The notes beneath the pieces were generated by a model. It did not search any database. It saw only the letters and a list, made by a program, of their open reading frames with translations, and had not been told where the DNA came from. A stretch of DNA of 64,000 nt, taken from an uncultured Candidatus Peribacteria bacterium. Its GTDB lineage: Bacteria; Patescibacteriota; Gracilibacteria; UBA1369; UM-FILTER-53-11. Made by a program: the position numbers and the translations under genes. Positions 450-60,471 of this stretch are shown here, piece after piece; within the stretch, counting starts at the first letter, position 1, and each line of letters opens with the position of its first letter. Location of the stretch: contig CAYHNW010000003.1 of NCBI GenBank assembly GCA_964358095.1, positions 10,306 through 74,305 on the forward strand, written 5' to 3'.

Positions 450-3263
450 TCATCGTACCACCGGAGCCGCTACCGGACAAATTAAACGATAGTCGCAGAA
501 ACTGCAGACGTAGCCGGGGGTAGGGGAGAAATCAGAGGAAGAGATCTCATCCGCAAGTTTCAAAATATCATCTTTGCAAACATCCAAACTTTTATCGGTA
601 CGTTCTGTTGATATTTTTTCGCCGGTTTCCAAAAGATAAAGGCTAAGTTTTGAAACCGGAATTTGTAGTACGTCACGGCACGCCAGGGCGTAAACGGAGA
701 GTTGTAGATTGTTCTTGAGGCTTTTCCCCTGACTTTCGCCCGTTTTATAGTCAATTACCTCATACGTTCCGTCCGGCAGACGATCTATGCGGTCTATTCG
801 TCCGTCAAAAATAGTATCTTTTATCTTAAGTTTAAAGGGGACTTCTATGTGTGAGGGGATTATTGGATTTTTCATCTCATTTGCATAAAATTTTGTAAGA
901 ATTTTAAATCCGTGTTTCTTTTGGATTTCTTGCATGGCACGTGTTTCATACCCGCCAATAATCCAATTTTTTTCATAAATCTCTCGTAAAACCGGCATCA
1001 AATTCTCATTGAACCTTTTTGCATCTTTTCGTAGAAGTAGATAAAAATCGCGCAAAGTATTGTGCATCGTTATTCCAAAATTCAAAACTGCCGGCATTTC
1101 ACCCGTAATTTTTGAAATGTATCTGAATTTATATTTAAGTGGACACATTTGAAATGTATCCAGTTGGCTATAACTCAATTTTGGCAATGGCGTTTTTATT
1201 TGTCCATGAGGCCTACTTTCAAAATCCAGCACAGTTTGTCGTGACGAGGATTTTGATTTTTTTACCTTATCAACCAAGATCGCCTTACCGCTTTCTAGAG
1301 CTTCCGCCACAAAGATAGATGGTTTCCATTGTTTTTTGCCGTCGTAAAAGTCGCTATAAGACAGAATTAAATCTTGTCTTGCACGAGTGCATGCAACATA
1401 AAATAATCTGCGCTCTTCTTCTAAATGGTGATTGCCTTCAGGGAGCGGTTCCGGAATTAATTCCGGTGGGATTTCTATTGCTTCTTTTCTATCCATTCCC
1501 GGGAATTTCCACTGAGCAAGCCCTGGCACAAAGACGGCATCAAATTCTAGCCCCTTTGCGCTATGAATGGTTAGTAACTTAATTGCGGACGGATCAATGA
1601 TCTGCGAACCGATTTCACGCTGGCCAACCTGCTCTAGCATTTGTGCGTAATTCAAAAAATCCATTACTTGCTTATGTTCGTGATTCTCTTCAAATTCGCG
1701 CACTTTCTCGGAAAACATGGCTATGTCTTCTACTATTTCTTGGCTGGCATCTTTTAAATAACCACTGTCGCGCAAAAACTTTCCGATTACTTTTGAGGCT
1801 TCATTCTTGCGTGAAAATTCCAAAAGTTCAGCAAGTATTTTTTTTACATTTTCAAATGTGGAGCCTGATACAAAATCGAACAGGGAACGGTTTTCAACTC
1901 TGGCTCGTTTTGTTATTTCCAAAATGCGCTCCATTTGGATTTTCCAAAGAGGCAAAGATAAAAATCTAAACATCGCAATGTCATCCCATGGATTAGCCAA
2001 AACTTTCAAAAGGGCAAAGCAATCTTTGATGCCAGCTTTTGTAAAAAGGTTTATGGGCGAAAAATGCTGGAATGGCGCACCTACATTTCTTAGTTTTTCC
2101 AAAAAAGGAGTTGCGAGCGCGTTGGTGCGCACCAAAATTGCCGGTGAAAGCTTCTTTTTGAGTGCCGCAATCGCTGATGAAACCACAAAATCCACTTCAT
2201 CTGCCAAGTTTTCAAAATGAAATATCTGAGTTGGCTTTTCTTTGTGTTCTTTTGCGGCCACCAATTTCTTTTCGATATTTTCGGTAGATTCGAGCCGGCG
2301 CGGGTTGTTTTTTTGTATGACGCTGTATGCCATATCCAAAATTTGCTGGCTGTTGCGATAATTGTCGCTCAAAACCACGCGGCGCGCTTCTGCAAATTCT
2401 TTTTGAAAATATTGAATATTTGTGAGTGAAGCTCCGCGCCACTTGTAAATTGCCTGATCGTCATCGCCGACAACAAGTAAGTTGCGGTGGCGTCGCGCAA
2501 GCATAGTTACTATTTTGTTTTGCGCGTAATTCGTGTCTTGAAATTCGTCCACAAGAATATATTTGAAGCGTTTTTGGTACTGCGCCAGCACAGACGCTCT
2601 TTTTTCAAACAAACGAAGCGTATGAAAAAGCAATCCACCAAAATCAATGTAGTTATTTTCAATTAAGAGCTTTTCATAAATTCCATACGACTTTGCAAGT
2701 TCGAGATGCTTTTTGGCATCCTCTTGCTCTTCGTCGTTTTTGGCTGCACTTTCCATTTTTCTCGCGTGTTCCACATACTGCTCTGGTTTAATATCCTCGT
2801 CCTTTAATCGGCTAAAATATTCCTGCATAGCCATTAAAAGCCTTTGTGGATTGCCCAAACTTCTAAAATAATCGAGCTCAAAATCGGCCAAGTGACGACG
2901 CAAAAATATCCACAAGTCCACTTCTTTCAAGATTTTGTAGTCGGTAGCGAGTCCGATATTGAGTCCGCTTTCGCGCAAAACCGCATCACAGAACGCGTGG
3001 AATGTTTTTACCCATACTGCCTCCATTCCAAGCGGAAGTTCGGAATCAATGCGATCAGTCATCTCTTGCGCGGCCTTTTCCGTAAAAGTAAGCGCCAAAA
3101 TCTGATCCGGAGAAACGCCTTTTTCTAAAATCAAATATAAAATCCTGCCTACAAGAAGGTTTGTTTTACCGGTTCCGGCGCCGGAAATTACCAAAATCGA
3201 GCCACTATCGTGAGTAATTGCCTCCCTTTGTCTTTCATTATAATTTGTAAGTGAAAACGCCAT
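450..3263 (-). CDS. UvrD/PcrA-type SF1 helicase fused to a C-terminal PD-(D/E)XK (Cas4/AddB-like) nuclease
   Basis: 937 aa. Helicase motifs: ISGAGTGKTN (Walker A), VDEFQDTN (motif II), TIHSAKGLEF, YVACTRAR. The C-terminus has CPLKYKFRY, GRIDRIDRLPDGTYEVIDYKTG, QLSVYA and CSFCDYRLIC, which is the C...CxxCx5C pattern of 4Fe-4S Cas4/AddB nucleases. Confidence 0.85.
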   Translation of the reverse strand: MAFSLTNYNERQREAITHDSGSILVISGAGTGKTNLLVGRILYLILEKGVSPDQILALTFTEKAAQEMTDRIDSELPLGMEAVWVKTFHAFCDAVLRESGLNIGLATDYKILKEVDLWIFLRRHLADFELDYFRSLGNPQRLLMAMQEYFSRLKDEDIKPEQYVEHARKMESAAKNDEEQEDAKKHLELAKSYGIYEKLLIENNYIDFGGLLFHTLRLFEKRASVLAQYQKRFKYILVDEFQDTNYAQNKIVTMLARRHRNLLVVGDDDQAIYKWRGASLTNIQYFQKEFAEARRVVLSDNYRNSQQILDMAYSVIQKNNPRRLESTENIEKKLVAAKEHKEKPTQIFHFENLADEVDFVVSSAIAALKKKLSPAILVRTNALATPFLEKLRNVGAPFQHFSPINLFTKAGIKDCFALLKVLANPWDDIAMFRFLSLPLWKIQMERILEITKRARVENRSLFDFVSGSTFENVKKILAELLEFSRKNEASKVIGKFLRDSGYLKDASQEIVEDIAMFSEKVREFEENHEHKQVMDFLNYAQMLEQVGQREIGSQIIDPSAIKLLTIHSAKGLEFDAVFVPGLAQWKFPGMDRKEAIEIPPELIPEPLPEGNHHLEEERRLFYVACTRARQDLILSYSDFYDGKKQWKPSIFVAEALESGKAILVDKVKKSKSSSRQTVLDFESRPHGQIKTPLPKLSYSQLDTFQMCPLKYKFRYISKITGEMPAVLNFGITMHNTLRDFYLLLRKDAKRFNENLMPVLREIYEKNWIIGGYETRAMQEIQKKHGFKILTKFYANEMKNPIIPSHIEVPFKLKIKDTIFDGRIDRIDRLPDGTYEVIDYKTGESQGKSLKNNLQLSVYALACRDVLQIPVSKLSLYLLETGEKISTERTDKSLDVCKDDILKLADEISSSDFSPTPGYVCSFCDYRLICPVAAPVVR

Positions 3264-3275
3264 AGGGAACTCACA

Positions 3276-4316
3276 TTATCTCAAAATCTTTTCCCATTCA
3301 ATCTCCATTTTTTCTTCTTGTATTATAAATCGCTGAGATTTCATGTGATCATGCCCTACGCATGCGAACTCTTCGGCAGCTTTTGTGTCTTCAATAGGAT
3401 ATGGAGATTTGAACCATCTTCCATATTCCCCAGTTCGTTTCATTATTGTTTTTATTTCTTCAACTTTTTTAAAATACTCGTCTGGCGAATAGGGGAGATT
3501 AAGAATGTAGAACTTGCGATTTTTAAGCGCAGTACATCCAAAACAATGTTCACACTCAAAACAATACTCGCAATATTCCAGGTTTTTGCCATACCAGCAC
3601 GTACTGCAAAAGTTACAATCATGCAATCCCATTCCACTCATTATTTCATAGGAGTTAACCACCGGATCTTCACCTGCAAACGAAACATCTGTGCAATGCA
3701 TACAGCTATTCGTGTTGTTCATGTAAAGACAATTTAGGCATTTCTCAACGTCAAAACAAAACTGGCATGAATCACTATTACTAATGTAATCGCCCGTGCA
3801 AAGTCCTTCTTCGTGATTTGCACGCATATAAATGTGAGGTCTTATTTTTTTTACCTCTTTGAATAATTTTCGCAATTCGTTTGGCTGTTTTTTCTTTAAT
3901 TTTGCCACCGTCTCAAAATACGCATCCTTTGAATATAGCTTATTGTAAATAAAATATTGTTTTCTCCATAACCCTATACAGGCAAAACAGTCCCTCAAGT
4001 CTTGGCAGTCAAAACAATAGTGGCTGTTCTCACAATCTTCGCAGTCTTGCAAAAAGGATGAATCTTTGCATTTTCTGCAGTCCAAACATTCGTAACATTC
4101 TTCGCAAGAACGACAATATGAAGAGTCTACGCAGTTTTTATTGTAATAACCCCAATAGTTATAGTGCGAATTCTTTAAAAAATCACTCCCAGTGGTGCTA
4201 TAACAATCCACGCATTTATAAGTGAAATTGCAAAAAGGACTCCGCTCGTCCCTAAAGTTCATCAGGGAGAGCCGCGGTACACTTGATCTTAGTTTTTCAA
4301 ATTGCTCAAGAAACAT
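3276..4316 (-). CDS. Cysteine-lattice repeat protein, paralog A (function unknown)
   Basis: 346 aa with no signal peptide or TM. Dense CxxC runs such as CRSCEECYECLDCRKC and CEYCFECEHCFGC. Both halves end in a C-x-G/A-C-x-x-L...(F/Y)-x-I-x-N-x-x-Y-S-x-D/E-x-Y/F motif. The N-terminus FLEQFEKLRSSVPR is shared with the other paralogs. Confidence 0.8.
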   Translation of the reverse strand: MFLEQFEKLRSSVPRLSLMNFRDERSPFCNFTYKCVDCYSTTGSDFLKNSHYNYWGYYNKNCVDSSYCRSCEECYECLDCRKCKDSSFLQDCEDCENSHYCFDCQDLRDCFACIGLWRKQYFIYNKLYSKDAYFETVAKLKKKQPNELRKLFKEVKKIRPHIYMRANHEEGLCTGDYISNSDSCQFCFDVEKCLNCLYMNNTNSCMHCTDVSFAGEDPVVNSYEIMSGMGLHDCNFCSTCWYGKNLEYCEYCFECEHCFGCTALKNRKFYILNLPYSPDEYFKKVEEIKTIMKRTGEYGRWFKSPYPIEDTKAAEEFACVGHDHMKSQRFIIQEEKMEIEWEKILR

Positions 4317-4372: not shown

Positions 4373-5305
4373 TTAACCAAATACCAGCCAATCGTAATTA
4401 CCTGATTTCTTCAACCCTTCGCGGATTTCGGCAACTTCTTTGTGCCAGGCATCTTTCGTATACTGCTTATTTAAAATCAAATATTCACGTCTATTTGTAA
4501 ACGCGCACCCAAAGAGATATTTACTATTGAAACAACCTTCGCAAAACTCGCTGTCGTGAAGATGTTCACAATAATGGCAAAAATTACTGTTCCAGCCGTC
4601 GCCAACTTGGATGCATTCATAGCAACTGTGTAAATCTACGCTAAAGTAGCAATCAAACACGTCTTCGCATTTATCACCGTATGCCGTGTAAATATCGTGA
4701 AGCCATGCGCCACTGTGAATGTTTTTCGCATTAAAACAGCCGAAACAGTCGCGTGAATTTTGAATGTTGTCACCAAAACAATTCTCGGTTTGATATTGGC
4801 GTGAAGCTACGTGCGGATGACTTTTTCTTAGTCGCTCAACTTCCGTATCAATCTCTGCACGCGGCATTTTCTTTAAATCGGAAATTTTTTCGGCATACTC
4901 TTCCTGTGAGTATCTCTTATTAAAAATAAAATTCTGGCTTCTGCGTAGCCCAACGCACCCAAAACAATTCTGGCAATTTAGGCAGTCGTAGCAGTGGTTG
5001 CAATCCGAACAATTGCGCAGAAATTGAGAAAAATCGCAGTTGTAGCTCCCATAGACTTCGATACCTTCATAACAAAGTTCGCTATTCCAAATATCTTCGC
5101 AGTCGCAGCAAAATCTGCTGCTATTAACGGTGCCGCTATACATACAGCCCTCAGAAGTATCCATATCAAAACAAAGGTAACAATTTTTAGAAAGATACAT
5201 TGCGTTACCATAGGGGCAATTTTGATTCTGGTAGCCGCTCACCGAAATACGCGGCGTCTTGAAGCACAACTGCTTAAACCCGGCTATAAATTCTTCTGCA
5301 GTCAT
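4373..5305 (-). CDS. Cysteine-lattice repeat protein, paralog B (function unknown)
   Basis: 310 aa. Contains NCSDCNHCYDCLNCQNCFGCVGLRRSQNFIFNKRYSQEEY and, in the second half, CEGCFNSKYLFGCAFTNRREYLILNKQYTKDAW. Same two-module layout as 3276-4316, 5735-6667 and 59527-60471. Confidence 0.8.
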   Translation of the reverse strand: MTAEEFIAGFKQLCFKTPRISVSGYQNQNCPYGNAMYLSKNCYLCFDMDTSEGCMYSGTVNSSRFCCDCEDIWNSELCYEGIEVYGSYNCDFSQFLRNCSDCNHCYDCLNCQNCFGCVGLRRSQNFIFNKRYSQEEYAEKISDLKKMPRAEIDTEVERLRKSHPHVASRQYQTENCFGDNIQNSRDCFGCFNAKNIHSGAWLHDIYTAYGDKCEDVFDCYFSVDLHSCYECIQVGDGWNSNFCHYCEHLHDSEFCEGCFNSKYLFGCAFTNRREYLILNKQYTKDAWHKEVAEIREGLKKSGNYDWLVFG

Positions 5306-5356
5306 ACGTCTTGAGCAAAAGCGAAAAGGGTAATTATTAAATACTTTGAAGGGAAA

Positions 5357-5398
5357 GGGGATGTGCGAAGGGGAAAACCGTCAAGGTTTTCCCCTTCG
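5357..5398 (-). repeat. Conserved stem-loop element, copy 1 (14-bp stem) 3 nt after a stop codon
   Basis: Plus strand: ggggatgtg + cgaaggggaaaacc / gtcaa / ggttttccccttcg. The second copy at 56102-56144 has the same flank and outer stem, with three compensated base-pair changes. No U-run follows in either orientation. Confidence 0.6.
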
Positions 5399-5734: not shown

Positions 5735-6667
5735 CTACTTTATTGTCTCTGCAAGAGATTTTCCGTAGACCTTAGCCTCTTTGAGATCTTTTATGATCTT
5801 TGCCGATGCCGCCAAATATTCATCTCTGGTGAACTGGCGATTCAAGATGCAGTACTCTTTATTCATCAGATAAGTGCAACCCAGGCAACTGCGGCAATTA
5901 TAACAATTAAGGCAGTATGTAGAGTCGCTGCAACCTATGCAGTTCTCCACAAAGCTACAATTATTGCAGGAATTGACATTGTGACATTCATAACAGAGTT
6001 CAATACCGGAACAGAAATCACAATCTACATTATCGGCAGAACTGGTCTGCTGATCGTTGACGTGTGAAACGTATGCAGAATCTGAAACATTGCGCACGCT
6101 AAAACATTGGAAACAATTTTTGCTGAAATATATGTAGTCGCCAAAACAGTGTTCACCGCCTTTTAGCATACGAGCATAGAGCCGTGGATGTTTATTGAAT
6201 TGAGGTGTCAAGACCTCAATAATCTTTTTTGGAGTATTCTTTTTAAATTCAGCGACGCGTTTTCTATATACGTCTTCAGGATAACTCTTGTTAAAGATGC
6301 AGAATTTTTGTTGTCGCAACCCAAATGATCCAAAGCAATCTTTGCAATTCAAACAGTCCGTGCAGAAATCGCAATTTGAACAGTTGTGGCAATCTTGAAG
6401 ATGCGAACAGCCGTAAAGTCCGCTGCAATCCACGCATTGATAGCTGAGTTCGCATGAGCCAAGATGAGCGCAGTCCACGCAATCTCTGCACTTGGTCAAA
6501 TACTCCGAGTAATAGCAATCTTCACATTCGGTTATGAAATAGCTTAGATAAATGTTTTTTGAAAGATAGACGTAATCTGAAAACTCGCAATTTTCTGCGG
6601 TACGACTGCTGGTTGCGTTCCTTGGTTTTGAAACAAGAAGATTTTTAAATTCTTTGTAAAAGTCCAT
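5735..6667 (-). CDS. Cysteine-lattice repeat protein, paralog C (function unknown)
   Basis: 310 aa, about 35 Cys by my count. Contains CHNCSNCDFCTDCLNCKDCFGSFGLRQQKFCIFNKSYPEDVY and CLNCYNCRSCLGCTYLMNKEYCILNRQFTRDEY. It starts 11 nt after the ATPase gene stop. Confidence 0.8.
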   Translation of the reverse strand: MDFYKEFKNLLVSKPRNATSSRTAENCEFSDYVYLSKNIYLSYFITECEDCYYSEYLTKCRDCVDCAHLGSCELSYQCVDCSGLYGCSHLQDCHNCSNCDFCTDCLNCKDCFGSFGLRQQKFCIFNKSYPEDVYRKRVAEFKKNTPKKIIEVLTPQFNKHPRLYARMLKGGEHCFGDYIYFSKNCFQCFSVRNVSDSAYVSHVNDQQTSSADNVDCDFCSGIELCYECHNVNSCNNCSFVENCIGCSDSTYCLNCYNCRSCLGCTYLMNKEYCILNRQFTRDEYLAASAKIIKDLKEAKVYGKSLAETIK

Positions 6668-14757: not shown

Positions 14758-14798
14758 AAGAATGAATTAATGAATATTAAAGTAATTTTTGACAAATG

Positions 14799-14848
14799 GT
14801 GCGTCCTTCGGACGCATTAAATGCTTAGCCTCGCTGCGGCTCGGCCTG
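14799..14848. repeat. GC-rich palindromic element, short copy A, overlapping the 3' end of ruvB
   Basis: Contains gcgtccttcggacgc (6-bp stem hairpin) followed by ttaaatgcttagcctcgc-tgcggctcggcct. It is collinear with the valS copy at 52761-52844 but lacks the central roughly 35 nt. Confidence 0.7.
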
Positions 14849-15896
14849 TTGGAAGTTCAAGACCGAGGTGCAGGTATGCGCGTTCAGTGACCATGCGGCC
14901 TCGCGGTGTGCGATCCAAAAAACCAAGTTGGATCAAATAAGGCTCATAAATATCTTCAAGCGTTTCTTGCTCCTCCGAAAGAGCCGAGGAAATTGTATTT
15001 AGTCCGACTGGTCCGCCTTTAAATTTCTCAACCATCGTTCTTAAAATATTACGATCCATTTCGTCCAGCCCCAGTTCATCAACGCCAAGAGAGGCGAGGG
15101 TTTGCTCCACAATTTTCTCACTAATCGAAGGCTGTTCGTGGTACTGAGCAAAGTCGCGAGCGCGGCGAAGCAGACGGTTGGCGATTCTTGGCGTTTGTCT
15201 GCTGCATTCCGCCAGTCTCTGCGCTCCCGCCTCACTTACTTCACATTCCAGAATTTTTGCGGATCTCATTATTATTTTACGAATATCTTCAATGTCGTAA
15301 AAATTAAATTTGAATACATTGCCAAAACGATCGCGGAGAGGGGATGAAAGCATACTCACCTTTGTGGTCGCCCCAATGAGGGTGAATCTGGGCAGATTAA
15401 GGCGAACTGCCCGCGCAGAAGGCCCTTTGCCGAGCATTATATCTATCGCGTAATCTTCCATTGCCGAATACAAAACCTCCTCCACAACTGGCCGCAGCCT
15501 GTGAATTTCATCAATAAAAAGCACATCTCCCGCGGCAAGATTTGTGAGTATCGAGGCCAAATCTCCCTGGCGTTCCATAGCAGGCCCAGAAGTGAGTTTT
15601 ACGTTGGTTCCCATCTCGTTACCAATGATGTATGCAAGAGTTGTCTTTCCAAGTCCGGCAGGACCATGTAAAAGGACGTGTTCAAGCGGTTCGCCACGTT
15701 TTTTTGCCGCTTCTATAAATACAGTCAAATTGCGCTTAATCTCATTTTGCCCCACATACTCGCCAAGAGCCTTGGGTCTCAAAGTTTGGTCAAACTGCGA
15801 AGGATCCTGCGCTTGAGAAACCGGATCCACAACTCTATTTTCTTCCCGCTGAATCATATTGGGCTTAATTATAACACTCTTCAATTTACCGGCCAT
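14817..15896 (-). CDS. ruvB: Holliday junction branch migration ATPase RuvB
   Basis: [26 protein letters not shown] (Walker A), FIDEIHRL (Walker B) and C-terminal [13 protein letters not shown]. The track ORF extends to 16022, but that N-terminal extension overlaps the upstream gene. The likely start is ATG 15896 (MAGKLK) or 15857 (MIQREEN). Confidence 0.85.
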
Positions 15897-16429
15897 TTTT
15901 CCGTCTCGACAGGCGGCGGATTTTCCCGTTTTTTGTGAAAAGTCGAATACATGTGTTCCATTTTGCCAATTATGAAGTGTTTGGTTCCCTCCGGATCGGG
16001 ACAATCCTGGAAATCTATGCATGCGGATGCACTTGCGGTGTCTATTTTAATGAATCCATAATCCAAGAAACGCAATTTGGATAAAATTCCCTTTTCGGAC
16101 GTTCCTATATCTTGAATATCCATCAGCTCGGCTTCGTGTTCTTCTCTCTTAAAAAGGCTTCTCCAATTGACCCAAATTACGCGCTTATTAGTAATTATTA
16201 ATTTGTCCAACAAGTAATCAAAAGAGAAAACCGCAATAATGATACCTATAAAGAAAGATATAAAAGCAAGGAGCCCGAGTGTAACTTCTGCGGATGCTTC
16301 TCGTCCTATGTAGAAAATCAACACATAAAAGGGGATTGCTATTGCTATCACTTCTGCAAGTTTCAAAAAATACGGCGTCGGATGCCGACTGACTGTTTTT
16401 AGTACCGCTTCTCCTTCGCGTAATTGCAT
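15881..16429 (-). CDS. Membrane protein with bacterial PH-like (YdbS/YdbT-type) domain
   Basis: 182 aa. [17 protein letters not shown] is followed by two TM helices and a soluble tail. This layout is typical of bPH_2 proteins as I recall them. Confidence 0.5.
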
Positions 16430-32985: not shown

Positions 32986-34386
32986 ATGGCATTTGAAGAT
33001 GGTCAATTAGGAGAACTTAAAGATCTTGCTGCTGCGCATGATAAAAAAGTTGAAACCCAGCAATTTAATTTTAATGACTTAAATCGGGCAGATGAAAGGA
33101 TGAAAAGCGAAGCCCGGGATGTTTTGCGAATAGCCAGAGAGGCTTCCCCAAAGAATCCGGACAAATTTATATTGGAAGCCATCGCAGAATATGCCAAAAC
33201 GGAAAAAATCCCTTTATTAGCGGCAAAGGCACAGGTTTTGCAATATCTTTCCCCGGAATATAAGGCAAAGGTTGATGCGGAAGTGAAAGAATATTTTACA
33301 AGATTTGATCTCAATGCCTTTGTTGCACTAAAAGCTGGCAGTCCGGAAAGCAATGAAGCAATAGAAACTTTAAAAATCCTTCGGGATGAAGGATACATGC
33401 CATATTTCGTGATAGCTGTGCATTACCAGGACGATCCCGTCAAAAAAGAGGCCATACTTAAGAAATATGATAAATTCACGAAAACCATCAAGGTCACTCT
33501 CAAGAAAATTGAACGAGTGCCATTTAACACAAAAGAGGCGTTTGTGTTAAATCCGACAAACACTTTCCCTGAAGCGAGAAAGTATTTTGAAAGTATGAAG
33601 AAATCACAACCAAAAGATAAATATGAATATGCAATAGGTCTTGCTTATAGATATTTAATAATTGGACGAGATATTGAAGCGGAATTCGGAGATTTTGACT
33701 GTGATGAGACAACTCTGCTTCTTCAAAAAACAGCGCTGGATGAAAGTCTTGAAATCGGCAATTATCTGACTACTGTCGGGCATGCTGTCTTGAAACTGGA
33801 TGGATTACCCTTGGTTCTGGATACTTATGACATAAAAATTCGTTCAGTTGAAGAATGTGCGAGAGGGGAAGGATACGGGGAAAATTCCCGTGCCAACCAC
33901 TTTTGGAAAGACAATAAAGGAGAATATCTTGCTCAATACGAAGAGGGTGATAGTTATCCAAAAAAGATAACAGGATTTAGAAAAGTGGAAAATAATCCTC
34001 ATCTTGTTACTCCAGATAGTGAATTAACTGCTTTAGTATTTGAAAGAGCAGATTTACTGAAATCCATGGGAAGAAAAGAAGAAGCAAAACTTCATCGTGA
34101 AAAAGCATTGGAAATTGATCCGAATGATGCAGACGCGCATGACGGTCTTGCGATTTTACTGGAATCCATGGGGGAAAAAGAAGAAGCAAAACTTCATTAT
34201 GAAAGAGCATTGGCAATTAATCCGAATGATGCAGAAGTGCATTTCAACCTTGCGATTCTGTTATATAATATTGGGGATTATCCAAATTCCCGAATTCATT
34301 TAAATGCATTCTATAAGCTAAGAAAGGGGGGATATGAAGATTATTATAAATTCCTTGAAGAATATTTAACGAAAAAAGGTTATTAA
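32986..34386 (+). CDS. Hypothetical protein with C-terminal TPR repeats
   Basis: 466 aa. C-terminal units EEAKLHREKALEIDPNDADAHDGLAILL and EEAKLHYERALAINPNDAEVHFNLAILL. Confidence 0.7.
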   Translation: MAFEDGQLGELKDLAAAHDKKVETQQFNFNDLNRADERMKSEARDVLRIAREASPKNPDKFILEAIAEYAKTEKIPLLAAKAQVLQYLSPEYKAKVDAEVKEYFTRFDLNAFVALKAGSPESNEAIETLKILRDEGYMPYFVIAVHYQDDPVKKEAILKKYDKFTKTIKVTLKKIERVPFNTKEAFVLNPTNTFPEARKYFESMKKSQPKDKYEYAIGLAYRYLIIGRDIEAEFGDFDCDETTLLLQKTALDESLEIGNYLTTVGHAVLKLDGLPLVLDTYDIKIRSVEECARGEGYGENSRANHFWKDNKGEYLAQYEEGDSYPKKITGFRKVENNPHLVTPDSELTALVFERADLLKSMGRKEEAKLHREKALEIDPNDADAHDGLAILLESMGEKEEAKLHYERALAINPNDAEVHFNLAILLYNIGDYPNSRIHLNAFYKLRKGGYEDYYKFLEEYLTKKGY

Positions 34387-50852: not shown

Positions 50853-50867
50853 CCCCGCTTAGCGGGG
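50853..50867. repeat. GC-rich hairpin identical to the core of the valS element (copy D, rpsB-valS intergenic)
   Basis: ccccgcttagcgggg is identical to 52797-52811. It is embedded in a wider GC-rich segment at about 50815-50880. Confidence 0.6.
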
Positions 50868-50969: not shown

Positions 50970-53651
50970 ATGTTCGCTGTGGAACTCGAAAAAGCTTACC
51001 AGGCCAAACAATACGAAGACCTTATATATAAGAAGTGGGAGCAGTCCGGACTCTTTTCGCCAAAAGCAGAAAAGGGCAAAAAGCCGTTTACTATTATGAT
51101 GCCGCCGCCGAATGCCACGGGCACGCTGCATCTTGGGCATGCCGTGATGCTGGCTCTTGAAGACATTATGGTGCGCTACCATCGCATGAAGGGCGACGCC
51201 GCGCTGTGGGTGCCGGGCACAGATCATGCTGGCATTGCGACACAGAATAAAGTTGAGAAATTAATTGCGGAGGAGGGGTTGACGCGGCAAAAACTTGGAC
51301 GTGAAAAATTTCTGGAACGAGTGGAAAAATTCGTGGCCGGTTCGCGCAGCACTATTCGCAACCAAATACGAAAAATGGGATCCTCCTGCGACTGGACGCG
51401 TGAGAGATACACGCTGGATGAACAGCTTTCACGGGCAGTGCGCGAGGTTTTTGTCCGAATGTACAAGGACGGATTAATTTATCGCGGACACAGAATTGTT
51501 AACTGGTGTCCACGCTGCAGCTCAACTTTGGCTGATGATGAAGTTACTTACAAGGAAGAAAAAGCGAAATTTTATTATTTTAAATATGGGCCGTTTGTGA
51601 TTGGCACAGCACGTCCAGAAACCAAATTTTTGGACAAGGTGATCGTGGTGCATCCCGACGACAAGCGTTACAAAAAATATATTGGGAAAGAGATGGAGGT
51701 CCCGTGGATAGAGGGAACTGTGAAAGCTCGAGTTTTGGCTGACAAAAGCGCTGATCCAAAGTTTGGAACTGGTGCGATGACCATCACTCCAGCCCACGAT
51801 TTTGTGGATTTTGAATTGGCGCAGCGTCACGGGCTCGAAATCGTACAGATCATTGATGAAAAAGGGGATTTGACTTCTGCTGCCGGTGAGTTTGCGGGAC
51901 AAAATGCGCGAAAAGCGCGCGAAGGAATTGTGAAAAAACTGGAAGAAAAAGGTTTGGTTGAAAAAATTGACGATAAATATGTCCACAATGTTTCGCTCTG
52001 CTATCGCTGCGGCACGCACGTCGAACCTCTCGTCAGTGATCAGTGGTTCATAGACGTAGATAAAAAGTTCAGAGCAGGGAAGTCGCTCAAAGACATGGCG
52101 CTCGAAGTTGTTAAGAATGGCAAAGTTAAAATTGTACCGGAGCGCTTTGAAAAAACATATTTCCACTGGATGGAAAACCTGCACGATTGGTGTATTTCGC
52201 GCCAAATTTGGTTTGGACACAGGATTCCGGTCTGGTATTGCGAGAAGTGTGGCGAGGTGATGGTTAGCGGGGAATCGCCAATCAAGTGCACAAAATGTGG
52301 CTCTAATAATTTGAGGCAAGATAACGACACACTCGACACGTGGTTCTCCTCCGGACTTTGGACTTTTTCCACTCTCGGCTGGCCGGAAAAAACTGCCGAC
52401 TTGGATTTTTTTCACCCGACGAGCGTGCTGGAAACAGGCTACGACATCCTGTTTTTCTGGATTGCCCGCATGATTCTTATGACGACTTATGCGCTGGATC
52501 AAGTTCCGTTTGAGAAAGTTTATTTGCACGGCCTGGTGCGCACTCGTGAAGGCAAAAAAATGAGCAAATCCGACCCAAAAACGTGCATTGATCCGCTCGA
52601 CATGATTGATAAATACGGCGCCGACGCACTGCGGCTTTCTATGGTGATCGGCAGTACGCCTGGCAACGATATTCGGCTTTATGAAGAGAAAATCGCGAAC
52701 TACCGGAACTTTGTGAATAAAATTTGGAATGCGGCCAGGTACGCGTTAATGCAGAAGGATGCGTCCTGCGGACGCGTTGATTGCTTAGCCTCGTCGCCCC
52801 GCTTAGCGGGGGATCCCGCTGAGGCGGGACTGCGGCTCAGCCTGGCAGCGAAAACTCTCGCGGACAAATGGATTTTAACCCGCACGCAAGAACTCATAAA
52901 AGAAGTCACTGACGACATCGAGAATTTCCGTTTTTCTGACGCAGGCACAAAAATTTACAACTTCACTTGGGACGATTACTGCGCTTGGTATTTGGAAATT
53001 TCAAAAGGCGAACAGCAAAATCTGTCGGTTTTGTCTTACGTTTTAAAGACGATTCTGGCTTTACTGCACCCATTTGTGCCGTTCGTTACCGAGGCTATTT
53101 GGGAACAGATAGGCGAAAAAAATATGCTGATTGGAGAGAAATTCCCGACGGTAGATAAAAGTTTTATTTTCACAAAAGATGCAAAAACTATGTCGGTGAT
53201 GGTGGATGCCGTCACGGCGATTCGTAACTTGCGGCAAGAAAGCAAAATTGAGCCGGCAAAAAAAATTCGCGCAATTTTGGCGAGCGCAAAGTGGAAAGAG
53301 CTTTTGGAAGAAAAACGCGAGCCGATTATGCGCTTGGCTCGCCTTAGCGAACTTGAAATTCTGGAAAAATCTCAAAAGATCCATCCGTCGCTCACTCATT
53401 ATACAAATGACGGCGTTGAAATAATTCTGCCGCTTGCAGATTTGATTGATGTGAAGGCCGAAACCGCGCGCCTGACCGAAGAAAAAAAAGATTTAGAGAA
53501 GTACATCACCTCCATGGAGGCAAAATTGGAAAATCCAAATTTTGCTGCCCGCGCTCCGCGTGAAATTGTGGCGACAGAAAAAGATAAATTGCGAATTGCT
53601 AAAGAAAAACTCGAAAAAATAAATTCTCAACTCGGTGATTTTCAAGGATAA
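50970..53651 (+). CDS. valS: Valyl-tRNA synthetase (carries an in-frame repeat-element insertion)
   Basis: 893 aa. HIGH-type motif PNATGTLHLGHA, KMSKS motif GKKMSKSD, editing domain, and a C-terminal coiled coil. Confidence 0.9.
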   Translation: MFAVELEKAYQAKQYEDLIYKKWEQSGLFSPKAEKGKKPFTIMMPPPNATGTLHLGHAVMLALEDIMVRYHRMKGDAALWVPGTDHAGIATQNKVEKLIAEEGLTRQKLGREKFLERVEKFVAGSRSTIRNQIRKMGSSCDWTRERYTLDEQLSRAVREVFVRMYKDGLIYRGHRIVNWCPRCSSTLADDEVTYKEEKAKFYYFKYGPFVIGTARPETKFLDKVIVVHPDDKRYKKYIGKEMEVPWIEGTVKARVLADKSADPKFGTGAMTITPAHDFVDFELAQRHGLEIVQIIDEKGDLTSAAGEFAGQNARKAREGIVKKLEEKGLVEKIDDKYVHNVSLCYRCGTHVEPLVSDQWFIDVDKKFRAGKSLKDMALEVVKNGKVKIVPERFEKTYFHWMENLHDWCISRQIWFGHRIPVWYCEKCGEVMVSGESPIKCTKCGSNNLRQDNDTLDTWFSSGLWTFSTLGWPEKTADLDFFHPTSVLETGYDILFFWIARMILMTTYALDQVPFEKVYLHGLVRTREGKKMSKSDPKTCIDPLDMIDKYGADALRLSMVIGSTPGNDIRLYEEKIANYRNFVNKIWNAARYALMQKDASCGRVDCLASSPRLAGDPAEAGLRLSLAAKTLADKWILTRTQELIKEVTDDIENFRFSDAGTKIYNFTWDDYCAWYLEISKGEQQNLSVLSYVLKTILALLHPFVPFVTEAIWEQIGEKNMLIGEKFPTVDKSFIFTKDAKTMSVMVDAVTAIRNLRQESKIEPAKKIRAILASAKWKELLEEKREPIMRLARLSELEILEKSQKIHPSLTHYTNDGVEIILPLADLIDVKAETARLTEEKKDLEKYITSMEAKLENPNFAARAPREIVATEKDKLRIAKEKLEKINSQLGDFQG
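52761..52844. repeat. GC-rich palindromic element, full-length copy B, inside the valS reading frame
   Basis: The sequence is gcgtcctgcggacgc-gttgattgcttagcctcgtcg-ccccgcttagcgggg-gat-cccgctgaggcggg-actgcggctcagcctg. It has three short hairpins. By my boundaries it is 84 nt (28 codons) and encodes ASCGRVDCLASSPRLAGDPAEAGLRLSL. Confidence 0.75.
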
Positions 53652-56061: not shown

Positions 56062-56101
56062 CGGAACTAGGCGAAATCTTTTTTACAGCACAACAATATT
56101 A

Positions 56102-56144
56102 GGGGATGTGCGAAGGGGAATTTCTATCAAGAAATTCCCCTTCG
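56102..56144 (-). repeat. Conserved stem-loop element, copy 2, 2 nt after the glnA stop
   Basis: ggggatgtg + cgaaggggaatttc / tatcaa / gaaattccccttcg. See copy 1 at 5357-5398. Confidence 0.6.
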
Positions 56145-59526: not shown

Positions 59527-60471
59527 ATGGATTTTTTCGCAGAACTTGAGCAATTGCAACTGAAGACGCCGCGAATTGGCTCCGTGCGTTTGCAGTCCAT
59601 CAACAGCGATTACAATCACAATATAGACGGCTGCAAAAATTGCTATTTGCTCTGCAATGCCGTAAAAAACGAAGACTGCATGTATGGCCGTGATTTTTAT
59701 GATAATGCCGACTGCGTTGACTGTGATCACGTTCGGCGCTGCACTCTGTGCTACGAATGCCTAAACTGCGCAGAATGTTGGAATTGCAAATATTTGCAGG
59801 ACTGCAAAAACTGCAGCGATTGTGATTTTGGATATTACCTAAAAGGCTGCAAAAACTGCATCGGATGCGTCGGACTAAATCAAAAAGAATTTTGCATATT
59901 TAATAAACCGTATTCAAAAGAAGATTTTTTGGACAAGAAAAAGTCTCTGACGGAGGAAGAAATTGCGCGTGAATTTGACGAACTAAAACACCATGTGCCG
60001 CGCACGCCTACACTGCAAATGGAAACAGAAAAATGCTTTGGTGATGCCCTTTTACATTGCAAAAATGCCTTTTACGCCTTTGATTGTGACGGATGCCAAG
60101 ACAGCGGATACGTTTATGAATGTAAAAGCCTCGAAGATTGCTTCGATATTTTTGTGCTGGAATATTCTGAGCTGTGCTACGAATGCAGCAGCAATTATAA
60201 ACTTCACAATTCTAATTTCTGTTTCATGTGCACAGGTTCCAGCAATTTGGAATATTGTGAGTTAGTGATGAACAGCAAAGATTGTTTTGGATGTATGGGG
60301 CTGAACCACAAAGAGTATTGCATATTGAACGTGCAATATTCTAAGGAGGATTATTTTAAGCGCGTGGCAGAAATTAAGGCACAGTTGCGTGCGAGCGGCG
60401 AATACGGAAAAAGGTTTTTGCCATCGAGTTATCCCATGCAAGATACGGTGGGCGTTTGGGAAAAATTGTAA
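59527..60471 (+). CDS. Cysteine-lattice repeat protein, paralog D
   Basis: 314 aa. The N-terminus FFAELEQLQLKTPR matches the other paralogs. Contains GCKNCIGCVGLNQKEFCIFNKPYSKEDF and SKDCFGCMGLNHKEYCILNVQYSKEDYF. It starts 4 nt after the purC stop. Confidence 0.8.
   Translation: MDFFAELEQLQLKTPRIGSVRLQSINSDYNHNIDGCKNCYLLCNAVKNEDCMYGRDFYDNADCVDCDHVRRCTLCYECLNCAECWNCKYLQDCKNCSDCDFGYYLKGCKNCIGCVGLNQKEFCIFNKPYSKEDFLDKKKSLTEEEIAREFDELKHHVPRTPTLQMETEKCFGDALLHCKNAFYAFDCDGCQDSGYVYECKSLEDCFDIFVLEYSELCYECSSNYKLHNSNFCFMCTGSSNLEYCELVMNSKDCFGCMGLNHKEYCILNVQYSKEDYFKRVAEIKAQLRASGEYGKRFLPSSYPMQDTVGVWEKL

What the first reader, a model, noticed from the sequence alone, without database searches (positions are those of the whole stretch)
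52761..52844. GC-rich palindromic repeat element inserted in-frame inside valS
Seen: a segment with three short GC hairpins (gcgtcc-tgc-ggacgc, ccccgc-tta-gcgggg, cccgc-tgag-gcggg) interrupts the AT-rich valS sequence. It is read through without a stop, as ...DASCGRVDCLASSPRLAGDPAEAGLRLSLAAKT.... Related copies occur at 14799-14848, 38761-38829 and 50853-50867. The insertion lies between the NKIWNAARYALM block and the LADKWIL block.

Established knowledge: that region is a length-variable loop in ValRS. In-frame survival of palindromic repeats inside essential genes is known for Rickettsia palindromic elements.

Inference: this is an analogous mobile or expanding element in this lineage.
Basis: partly seen in the sequence, partly recalled or inferred. 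Interest (0 to 1): 0.75.

Follow-up and report, generated by a model that had tools for sequence, protein, structure and literature searches.

The report
In-frame hairpin repeat inside valS
A 90-base GC-rich repeat sits in frame inside the essential valyl-tRNA synthetase gene of a groundwater candidate-phyla-radiation (CPR) bacterium, and it belongs to an apparently undescribed family of about 54-60-base elements that have entered many housekeeping genes without breaking them, much as the Rickettsia palindromic elements do.

Summary
The interpretation, an analogue of the Rickettsia palindromic elements (RPE), is supported and extended.

**The valS element.** Window 52755-52844 is a 90-nt, 70% GC element read in frame inside valS. 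It has three parts:
- a GC hairpin;
- a 9-nt linker;
- a 22-nt box, TAGCCTCGCYRCGGCTCGGCCT, split here by two extra mini-hairpins.

**The family.**
- The window holds two more copies. One supplies the last 9 codons and the stop codon of ruvB.
- Four Peribacteria/Peregrinibacteria genomes hold dozens of copies.
- About half of roughly 75 copies lie inside long ORFs, in either orientation and always in an open frame.
- Hosts include ValRS, AtpG, YidC, DHFR, G6PD, PolX, a UvrD-like helicase and NadB.
- Orthologues lacking the insert exist, so there are empty sites.
- Hairpin stems covary.
- Size classes differ by 3 nt. Off-phase lengths occur only outside genes.
- No target-site duplication, terminal inverted repeats, Rfam match or transposase was found.

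**ValRS.** AlphaFold gives the element-coded 30 residues as the only low-confidence internal loop. It lies between two helices of the anticodon-binding domain.

**Verdict.** This is a new family of selfish, codon-compatible repeats, analogous to RPEs but not a member of that family. How it is mobilised is unknown; a hairpin-specific single-strand enzyme is my inference only.

The parts
50970..53651 (+). valS (valyl-tRNA synthetase, 893 aa). It is the intact host gene.
   Evidence: ORF. It is 100% identical to an NCBI MAG ValRS. It aligns end to end with T. thermophilus ValRS 1GAX, E = 5e-197. The AlphaFold model has mean pLDDT 82.7.
52755..52844 (+). Composite repeat element, 90 nt = 30 codons (K596-L625), read in the valS frame. 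This is family copy C.
   Evidence: Sequence. Covariance-model hit of 49.5 bits, E = 1e-11. GC 0.70. Codon layout.
52760..52776 (+). Hairpin 1 of the element: T GCGTCC tgc GGACGC G.
   Evidence: Copy A has the same stem. Stem covariation across the family is shown.
52786..52793 (+). 5' half of the conserved 22-nt box (TAGCCTCG).
52794..52829 (+). 36-nt (12-codon) expansion inside the box loop. It holds two mini-hairpins: CCCCGC-tta-GCGGGG at 52797-52811 and CCCGC-tgag-GCGGG at 52815-52828.
   Evidence: (family D2). It is absent from all 59 exact-box copies in other genomes.
52830..52843 (+). 3' half of the box (CTGCGGCTCAGCCT, one G-to-A change from the consensus).
14795..14848 (+). Copy A, the uninterrupted 54-nt form. 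It lies between a lipoprotein-like gene and ruvB.
   Evidence: Covariance-model hit of 73 bits.
14817..16022 (-). ruvB. Its last 9 codons (GRAAARLSI) and its stop codon are supplied by the reverse strand of copy A.
   Evidence: ORF. Homology to solved RuvB structures ends at ...[11 protein letters not shown].
38756..38829 (+). Copy B. Its box is interrupted by one mini-hairpin (CCCCGCTGAGGCGGG, 38788-38802) and is enclosed by an outer CCCCGC/GCGGGG stem. It is intergenic, upstream of nadA.
   Evidence: Covariance-model hit of 20 bits.
50853..50867 (+). Solitary mini-hairpin CCCCGCTTAGCGGGG in the rpsB-valS spacer. It is identical to the one nested in valS.

Best explanation
**What it is.** The valS segment is a copy of a dispersed repeat family found in Peribacteria/Peregrinibacteria, which belong to the candidate phyla radiation (CPR).

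**Unit structure.** The unit is about 54-60 nt:
- (A)AGG(A/T) at the 5' end;
- a 7-8-bp GC hairpin;
- a 9-nt linker;
- a 22-nt box, TAGCCTCGCYRCGGCTCGGCCT;
- G.T.GA at the 3' end.

**Shown here.**
- Copies are present in some orthologues and absent from others.
- Four of the six reading frames through the element are open.
- Every copy inside a gene is in an open frame and in phase.
- The valS copy encodes 30 residues. They are predicted to form a disordered loop between two helices of the anticodon-binding domain.

**Inferred.**
- The element is, or recently was, selfish mobile DNA that inserts without a target-site duplication.
- In a genome that is about 90% coding (my estimate), selection removes every insertion except those that keep the frame and land in permissive loops. 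The survivors are simply translated.
- In the window's lineage the loop of the box then gained one or two mini-hairpins, in multiples of three when inside the gene, and most of the native ValRS loop was lost.
- Mobilisation is most likely by a trans-acting enzyme that recognises the hairpin plus the box on single-stranded DNA, in the style of HUH/Y1 transposases (IS200/IS605, RAYT). This last step is the least supported.
For: **A real family.** One scan of genome contigs found about 57 exact-box copies in four Peribacteria genomes. The covariance model raised this to about 75, plus three in the window.

**Residence inside genes.**
- 31 of 64 copies (34 of 72 with the model) lie in ORFs that stay open for at least 40 codons on both sides, in either orientation.
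- Pfam confirms real hosts. They include a UvrD-like helicase, PolX, a P-type ATPase, NadB, DHFR, G6PD, ProC, TilS, AtpG, YidC, RsmE, GshA and GshB.

**Empty sites.** The window's UvrD-like orthologue lacks exactly 20 residues that are present in L012. Two further orthologue pairs show the same. L081 and L082 lack the valS insert.

**Structure under constraint.** 97.6% of hairpin cells are paired and 6 of 7 pairs show compensatory double changes. Controls with the partner slid by 1-3 columns give 26-50% paired (stems listed).

**Codon compatibility.** 33 of 34 in-gene copies are in phase. Every other off-phase length belongs to a non-genic copy, and size classes differ by +3.

**No split genes.** Every apparent 'restored' ORF proved to be two adjacent, distinct genes.

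**Amplification within lineages.** Outside the box, copies are 79-92% identical within a genome and 69% identical between genomes.

**Placement.** Neighbouring copies point the same way in 13 of 14 loci that hold more than one copy. No target-site duplication of 3 bp or more was found.

**Tolerance in ValRS.** The only internal segment with pLDDT below 50 is 597-623, flanked by helices 572-594 and 630-651. T. thermophilus ValRS has a 22-residue gap at this point. The same insert is present in a second assembly of the organism.
Against: - No transposase or other candidate enzyme was found in about 470 kb of sampled DNA.
- The bias against replication direction is weak: 48 of 76 copies by local GC skew, p = 0.03.
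- The invariance of the box is partly an artefact of ascertainment. The scan required an exact match, and the loci searched later were chosen by that match.
- Element boundaries are known only to within a few bases. Filled and empty sites could be compared only between proteins 46-57% identical.
- The window's genome has few copies: three in about 74 kb. Activity in this particular lineage is therefore not shown.
- There is no direct evidence that the element is translated.
Confidence: 0.78

Rival explanations
1. The conserved 22-nt box with its hairpin is a host-selected signal. It could be a DNA-uptake or recombination signal, a protein-binding site or an RNA-stability motif. On this view it spreads by recombination or gene conversion, and its residence in genes is incidental.
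For: - The box is identical across species whose ValRS proteins are only about 72-76% identical.
- Copies within one genome resemble each other more than the same-site valS copies in two genomes do. That fits concerted evolution.
- No transposase was found.
- From my own knowledge: CPR bacteria depend on DNA uptake.
Against: - Copies arise as insertions of about 54-60 nt that are absent from orthologues. Uptake sequences instead arise by point-mutation drive.
- There are only tens of copies per genome.
- Both orientations and intergenic positions are used, with no consistent position relative to genes.
- The closest relatives sampled have none.
- The conservation of the box is inflated by how the copies were found.
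Confidence: 0.12
2. The two valS copies, in the window and in Hainich H32, descend from one ancient insertion. That insertion has since been kept similar to other copies by gene conversion. On this view the window copy is a relic and not evidence of recent mobility.
For: - Both copies are in the same loop, orientation and frame.
- The L081 loop (SAPLGKAK; GCGCCTTTAGGA...) could be a decayed 5' half of the element.
Against: - Their positions relative to the flanks differ: directly after ALMQ in the window, four codons later in H32. The 3' flanks differ by 10 codons.
- Each copy carries the hairpin or linker type of its own genome. The window copy C matches window copy A, and the H32 copy matches L066:6013.
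- The ValRS tree is star-like, and lineages without the insert are interleaved with those that have it.
Confidence: 0.4
3. The segment is removed before the mature ValRS is made, as an intron-like or intein-like sequence or by translational bypassing. On this view the open frame is irrelevant.
For: None directly. From my own knowledge, CPR bacteria are known for intervening sequences in rRNA genes.
Against: - All 34 in-gene copies use one of the four open frames, and 33 of the 34 have in-phase lengths.
- No gene is split by a copy in a closed frame.
- At 54-90 nt it is far too short for an intein or a group I/II intron.
- There is no Rfam match.
Confidence: 0.03
4. It is an ordinary lineage-specific loop expansion or an assembly artefact, and the resemblance to other loci is chance.
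For: The loop is variable in length. Another homologue, P0112, has an unrelated insertion of equal length in the same loop.
Against: - The copies share a 39-nt block at 85% identity plus a 14-nt block. None of 100 shuffles reproduced the second.
- The covariance-model E-value is 1e-11.
- The sequence is identical in an independent assembly.
- Dozens of copies exist in four other genomes.
Confidence: 0.01

Closest known systems
Rickettsia palindromic elements (RPE-1 to RPE-10; Ogata et al. 2000, as summarised in PMC10969869)
   Same: - Short, GC-biased, structure-forming repeats dispersed in a small genome.
- A large fraction are inserted in frame in unrelated housekeeping genes.
- The hosts include aminoacyl-tRNA synthetases; this is from my own memory for RPEs.
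- They are read through as extra peptide, apparently in surface loops.
- No transposase is known.
   Different: - The lineage is unrelated (CPR versus Alphaproteobacteria) and there is no sequence relationship.
- The unit is 54-60 nt here, against about 100-150 bp for RPEs.
- Only a 17-23-nt hairpin is palindromic. It is joined to a non-palindromic 22-nt box.
- Four frames in both orientations are used.
- Size classes are spaced by whole codons.
- Mini-hairpins are nested inside the box.
REP / REPIN elements mobilised by RAYT (Y1/HUH) transposases, and IS200/IS605 ends
   Same: - A GC-rich imperfect hairpin of about 20 nt next to a conserved short motif.
- No terminal inverted repeats and no target-site duplication.
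- Neighbouring copies are co-oriented.
- Hairpins nest inside other hairpins. From my own memory, some IS elements likewise target REP loops.
   Different: - REPs are almost entirely extragenic and often occur as inverted doublets. Here about half of the copies are intragenic and neighbours are direct.
- The GTAG/CGTC tag described in PMC3733652 is not a consistent feature.
- No RAYT or TnpA gene was found in the sampled DNA.
Small dispersed repeats (SDR) of heterocystous cyanobacteria (Elhai et al. 2008, Genome Res 18:1484). Cited from my memory and from the reference list of PMC3116915; the paper itself could not be read.
   Same: Very small hairpin units, about 15-25 nt, that appear nested inside one another and inside genes. 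The CCCCGC-tta-GCGGGG and CCCGC-tgag-GCGGG mini-hairpins in copies B and C, and the solitary one at 50853, look similar.
   Different: - The phylum and the sequences are different.
- Only four mini-hairpins were seen here, so their status as independent mobile units is not established.
MITEs (Correia, ERIC, BOX and others; review PMC10969869)
   Same: Short, non-autonomous, multi-copy elements that are occasionally intragenic and form in-frame fusions.
   Different: No terminal inverted repeats and no target-site duplication. The element is shorter than typical MITEs and is asymmetric, with the hairpin at one end and the box at the other.

Membership tests
Rickettsia palindromic elements (RPE) | In-frame insertion into many unrelated protein-coding genes, read through without a stop. 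| tested here: met
   31-34 copies lie in long ORFs, and Pfam confirms 20 or more of the hosts.
Rickettsia palindromic elements (RPE) | Unit of about 100-150 bp that is palindromic over most of its length. | tested here: not met
   The unit is 54-60 nt. Only a 17-23-nt hairpin and a weak 4-bp stem in the box are self-complementary.
Rickettsia palindromic elements (RPE) | Sequence homology to the RPE consensus sequences, and occurrence in Rickettsia. | not tested
   No RPE consensus was available to align. The hosts here are Patescibacteria/Peribacteria, so homology is very unlikely.
REP/REPIN-RAYT | Extragenic location. | tested here: not met
   About 45-50% of copies are inside genes.
REP/REPIN-RAYT | Conserved GTAG or CGTC tetranucleotide at one end of the palindrome (PMC3733652). 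| tested here: not met
   Hairpin 1 is preceded by AAGG(A/T). The box starts with TTAGCC in most copies, and GTAGCC occurs in only a few.
REP/REPIN-RAYT | A cognate RAYT (Y1/HUH) gene in the genome, usually flanked by the repeats. | tested here: inconclusive
The genomes were only partly sampled.
REP/REPIN-RAYT | Inverted doublets (REPINs). | tested here: not met
   Neighbouring copies are direct in 13 of 14 multi-copy loci. The one tandem pair (L056) is head to tail.
MITE | Terminal inverted repeats. | tested here: not met
   The 5' end (AAGGWTGCGCC) and the 3' end (GGCCTGNTNGA) are not complementary.
MITE | Target-site duplication. | tested here: not met
   For every tested boundary pair and k = 3-6, at most 10 of 72 copies showed a flanking repeat (about 7 expected), and the largest excess over mismatched pairs was about 4 copies (7 seen, 3 expected).
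IS200/IS605-type single-strand elements | Sub-terminal hairpin, no TIR or TSD, and strand-specific orientation relative to replication. | tested here: inconclusive
   The hairpin and the lack of a target-site duplication are met. Local co-orientation is strong, but the link to GC skew is weak (p = 0.03). No closed genome was available.
Intein or self-splicing intron | Catalytic blocks or a ribozyme core, with size of at least about 130 aa or at least about 200 nt. | tested here: not met
   The insert is 18-30 codons. There is no Rfam match and no gene is split.

The most novel reading that the evidence does not exclude
Peribacteria carry a previously undescribed class of very small selfish elements, 18-20 codons long, that have adapted to living inside genes. 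Their size variants change only by whole codons. Four of their six frames are open. A 22-nt recognition box is kept identical across species by an active, sequence-specific mobilisation or conversion machinery that has not been identified. If so, these elements would be a general source of the protein-loop insertions typical of CPR proteomes, and a handle on a new DNA-transaction enzyme.
Probability: 0.35. Interest if true: 0.8.

Novelty: new variant of a known kind. Interest (0 to 1): 0.68.

Why it matters
- Selfish DNA living inside essential genes has essentially one textbook example, the RPEs of Rickettsia, and their mechanism is still unknown after 25 years.
- This is a second, independent case. 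It is much smaller and occurs in free-living or episymbiotic CPR bacteria with equally compact genomes.
- That suggests the phenomenon is a general outcome of repeat invasion in genomes with little intergenic space.
- The family has a sharply defined 22-nt box and a covarying hairpin, which gives a concrete substrate for finding the enzyme responsible.
- The size classes spaced by whole codons suggest selection acting on the element itself for compatibility with genes.
- In practice, such insertions inflate CPR protein lengths and create low-confidence loops, as in ValRS here. They can mislead alignment, phylogeny and structure prediction.

Tried and rejected
**Searches that found nothing**
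- Rfam at gathering and at E-value thresholds: only tRNAs and a chance miRNA hit.
- The single metagenome scan, using the window-type hairpin plus half-box pattern: two chance matches in a GC-rich gene that I read, without running a search, as archaeal TFB/TFIIB.
- Viral contigs: no box.
- Protein-database query with the two common element peptides: no candidates. That search was wasted.
- Y1 transposase search: negative.
- All-against-all clustering of ORFs near copies: from their sequences (no search run) the recurring families look like pilin-like and AAA-ATPase proteins, and nothing resembled a transposase.
- Literature searches for a description in CPR or Peribacteria. The Peribacteria genome paper PMC4736985 mentions only origin repeats.

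**Tests with negative results**
- Target-site duplication test.
- Intron-like 'restored ORF' test: the merged ORFs were adjacent, distinct genes, namely TruB/MraY-like, GshA/GshB and PilO-like/PilC-like.

**Attempts that fell short**
- RNAalifold on the raw MAFFT alignment missed hairpin 1, because subfamilies with longer stems were out of register. Fitting to a covariance model solved this.
- The ValRS tree could not resolve whether the two carriers are sisters.
- Extending the window's contig by 10 kb on the left gave no further copy.
Full report
**1. Observation**

- valS is the ORF at 50970-53651 (+), 893 aa.
- The segment is 70% GC, against 47% for the gene and 43% for the window.
- It is read through as ...QKDASCGRVDCLASSPRLAGDPAEAGLRLSLAAKT..., between NKIWNAARYALM and LADKWIL.
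- The related sequences at 14799-14848, 38761-38829 and 50853-50867 are real.
- The half-boxes GCTTAGCCTCG and CTGCGGCTCGGCCT each occur three times, always on the + strand. For the second, none of 100 shuffles gave three matches.
- The organism is a Patescibacteria MAG of the Peregrinibacteria/Peribacteria group. The same locus, 99.95% identical and carrying the insert, is in GCA_038078575.1.

**2. Anatomy of the family**

- I scanned one genome per GTDB species with TAGCCTCGN{0,30}CYRCGGCTCRGCCT. This returned 78 loci.
- All matches outside Peribacteria had long gaps and unrelated flanks, so they are chance matches.
- 53 of the loci come from four MAGs (CAYHVY01, JACPMA01, JBBTWV01 = Hainich H32-bin004, JACRID01). 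Between them they hold 59 uninterrupted 22-nt boxes.
- Anchored alignment shows that conservation runs from about 31 nt before the box to 6 nt after it.
- The unit is therefore (A)AGG(A/T), hairpin 1, a constant 9-nt linker, the box TAGCCTCGCYRCGGCTCGGCCT, and G.T.GA. That is about 54-60 nt.
- Hairpin 1 differs in sequence between subfamilies but stays complementary. The stems seen are TGCGCCC/GGGCGCR, TGTCCCGC/GCGGGACG, TGCCCAGC/GCTGGGCA, GCCCCGAC/GTCGGGGC and, in the window, TGCGTCC/GGACGCA.
- I built a covariance model from 26 copies. It found 82 hits at E ≤ 0.01 in 474 kb, of which about 75 are convincing.
- On that alignment 97.6% of stem cells are paired and 6 of 7 pairs show compensatory double changes. 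Controls with the partner slid give 26-50% paired. The alignment was fitted to the model, which favours the structure, but the explicit stems listed show the same thing.
- In the window the model, run with filters off, finds only copies A, C and B.

**3. Residence inside genes**

- Of the 64 copies matching the box pattern (61 with an uninterrupted box, plus the window's two interrupted copies and one partial copy at a contig end), 31 lie in reading frames open for at least 40 codons on both sides. With the model-based set the figure is 34 of 72.
- Both orientations occur.
- Frame use among the 31 in-gene copies:

| Frame | Copies | Encoded peptide |
|---|---|---|
| +2 | 16 | K[DV]APxGRxxxLAS[LP]RLGL |
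| -0 | 12 | xxRPSR[SG]EA[NK]xxxRPxGA[ST] |
| +1 | 2 | not tabulated |
| -1 | 1 | not tabulated |

- The other two frames contain stop codons.
- Pfam shows that the hosts are genuine conserved proteins, with domain matches that run across the insert:
  - ValRS, a UvrD/AddA-like helicase-nuclease and PolX;
  - a P-type ATPase and an ADH/GFO oxidoreductase;
  - NUDIX, TilS, NadB, DHFR, FemAB and G6PD;
  - YfiH, ProC, AtpG, YidC and RsmE;
  - a DHH phosphoesterase, GshA, GshB, an O-antigen ligase and SAM methyltransferases.
- Empty sites exist. The window's UvrD-like orthologue (468-3239, -) lacks exactly the 20 residues DAPRGRGTVLASPRLGLTEA that are present in L012. Two further orthologue pairs behave the same way.
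- No gene is split by a copy in a closed frame. Every ORF that was 'restored' by deleting a copy proved to be two adjacent, distinct genes.

**4. Codon compatibility**

- The span from hairpin start to box end is 48, 51 or 54 nt in nearly all copies.
- A box variant carries 3 extra nt. The valS expansion is 36 nt.
- By covariance-model span, 33 of 34 in-gene copies are in phase.
- Among non-genic copies 24 of 38 are in phase (p = 1.6e-4 against one third). Apart from one truncated in-gene copy, off-phase lengths are confined to non-genic copies.
- That in-gene copies are in phase follows from selection on the host genes.
- That whole subfamilies differ by whole codons suggests, as an inference, that gene-compatible variants are the ones that proliferate.

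**5. The valS copy**

- Codon by codon, the window reads ALMQ | element (30 codons, 52755-52844) | AAKT LADKWIL.
- Hainich H32 (P0003, 72% identical by BLASTP) reads ALMQTEE | simple 18-codon element | GEKIPENIPVKAKT LADKWIL.
- The two closest sampled relatives have ordinary loops of 14-20 residues. They are P0002 (L081, syntenic over 22 kb) and P0005 (L082). The model finds no family copy anywhere in their 39 kb.
- The window copy is therefore a composite:
  - the primary element;
  - a 36-nt insertion in the loop of the box stem, made of two mini-hairpins;
  - loss of most of the native loop.
- Copy B has one such mini-hairpin.
- An identical CCCCGCTTAGCGGGG stands alone 1.9 kb upstream of the valS copy.
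- No interrupted box was found in the other four genomes.
- Whether the window and H32 copies come from one ancient insertion or from two is open.
  - For one insertion: same loop, orientation and frame.
  - For two: the flank positions differ, and each copy carries the hairpin or linker type of its own genome.
  - The ValRS tree is star-like and does not decide the matter.

**6. Consequence for ValRS**

- Against T. thermophilus ValRS (1GAX) the alignment is continuous apart from a 22-residue gap at the insert.
- The AlphaFold model has mean pLDDT 82.7. Its only internal stretch below 50 is 597-623, which is the element-coded peptide K596-L625. It lies between helices 572-594 and 630-651 of the anticodon-binding domain.
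- The insert is thus predicted to be a disordered loop.
- I did not measure its distance to the tRNA.
- Among 116 homologues the loop spans a median of 32 residues. Only the window (49), P0003 (50) and P0112 (50, unrelated sequence) are long.

**7. Copy A and ruvB**

- Homology to solved RuvB structures ends at ...[11 protein letters not shown].
- The final GRAAARLSI and the stop codon are encoded by the reverse strand of copy A.

**8. Mechanism**

Shown:
- There is no target-site duplication of 3 bp or more.
- There are no terminal inverted repeats.
- Neighbouring copies are co-oriented in 13 of 14 multi-copy loci, and copies are clustered.
- Within-genome identity exceeds between-genome identity.

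Weak:
- The element's top strand tends to lie on the strand with negative GC skew (48 of 76, p = 0.03).

Not found:
- No Y1 transposase in the sampled DNA.
- No viral copy.
- No Rfam family.

Inference:
- A trans-acting enzyme reads a hairpin plus a fixed-distance box on single-stranded DNA and inserts the element without duplication. Selection then keeps only in-frame copies in permissive loops.
- Gene conversion between copies is an alternative, or an additional, way of keeping them uniform.

**9. Comparison with known elements and novelty**

- In behaviour this is closest to the Rickettsia palindromic elements (PMC10969869, summarising Ogata 2000). It is not a member of that family, since the lineage, length and architecture all differ.
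- It shares the hairpin and the lack of a target-site duplication with REP/RAYT and IS200/IS605 substrates. It fails their tests for extragenic location, for the 5' tag and for inverted doublets.
- The nested mini-hairpins recall the cyanobacterial small dispersed repeats. That comparison is from my memory, because the paper could not be read.
- I found no description of such elements in CPR or Peribacteria.

**10. Limits**

- Box conservation is inflated by how the copies were found.
- The genomes were sampled only around copies.
- Boundaries are known to within a few bases.
- The window's own genome was surveyed over only about 74 kb.
- Translation has not been demonstrated.

Noticed in passing
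window 34053-34256: Two tandem copies of a 102-nt unit, 84% identical. They lie about 280 nt from tRNA-Leu(tag) at 34539-34623 (-).
   Followed up: no
window 17340-17368 and 17381-17409: An exact 29-nt direct repeat (GGCGGGTGCCATCATCAAGCAGATGTGGC), 41 nt start to start, about 80 nt downstream of tRNA-Arg(tct) at 17186-17260. It could be an attachment-site-like or a regulatory repeat.
   Followed up: no
window 5356-5375 and 56101-56120; ORFs 3276-4316, 4373-5305, 5735-6667 (-) and 59527-60471 (+): An exact 20-nt repeat (AGGGGATGTGCGAAGGGGAA) at two distant sites. There is also a family of four paralogous ORFs of about 310-346 aa with no assigned function, three of them in tandem.
   Followed up: no
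L085 4636-4800 (ValRS P0112, Logan SRR22387754): A different relative has an equally long but unrelated insertion in the same ValRS loop (SERTTRARSESKNLVLPVLRRSE), with a GC-richer patch. This loop may be a recurrent landing site for insertions.
   Followed up: partly
L081 11774-11893 (ValRS P0002): The loop peptide SAPLGKAK (DNA GCGCCTTTAGGAAAAGCA) resembles the 5' hairpin half of the element (GCGCCCTTTGGGCGCA; peptide VAPFGRI). It may be a decayed remnant of an old insertion.
   Followed up: partly
L066 5505-5568, L034 2944-3007, L063 7894-7957: A box variant with 3 extra bases (TAGCCTCGCCTCGACGGCTCGGCCT) recurs in H32-bin004. One O-antigen-ligase-like protein in L066 carries two element copies in different frames.
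   Followed up: partly
L056 1198-1320: Two elements lie head to tail, with the second starting directly after GGCCTG of the first. This is the only tandem pair seen, and it helps define the unit as AAGG...GGCCTG.
   Followed up: partly
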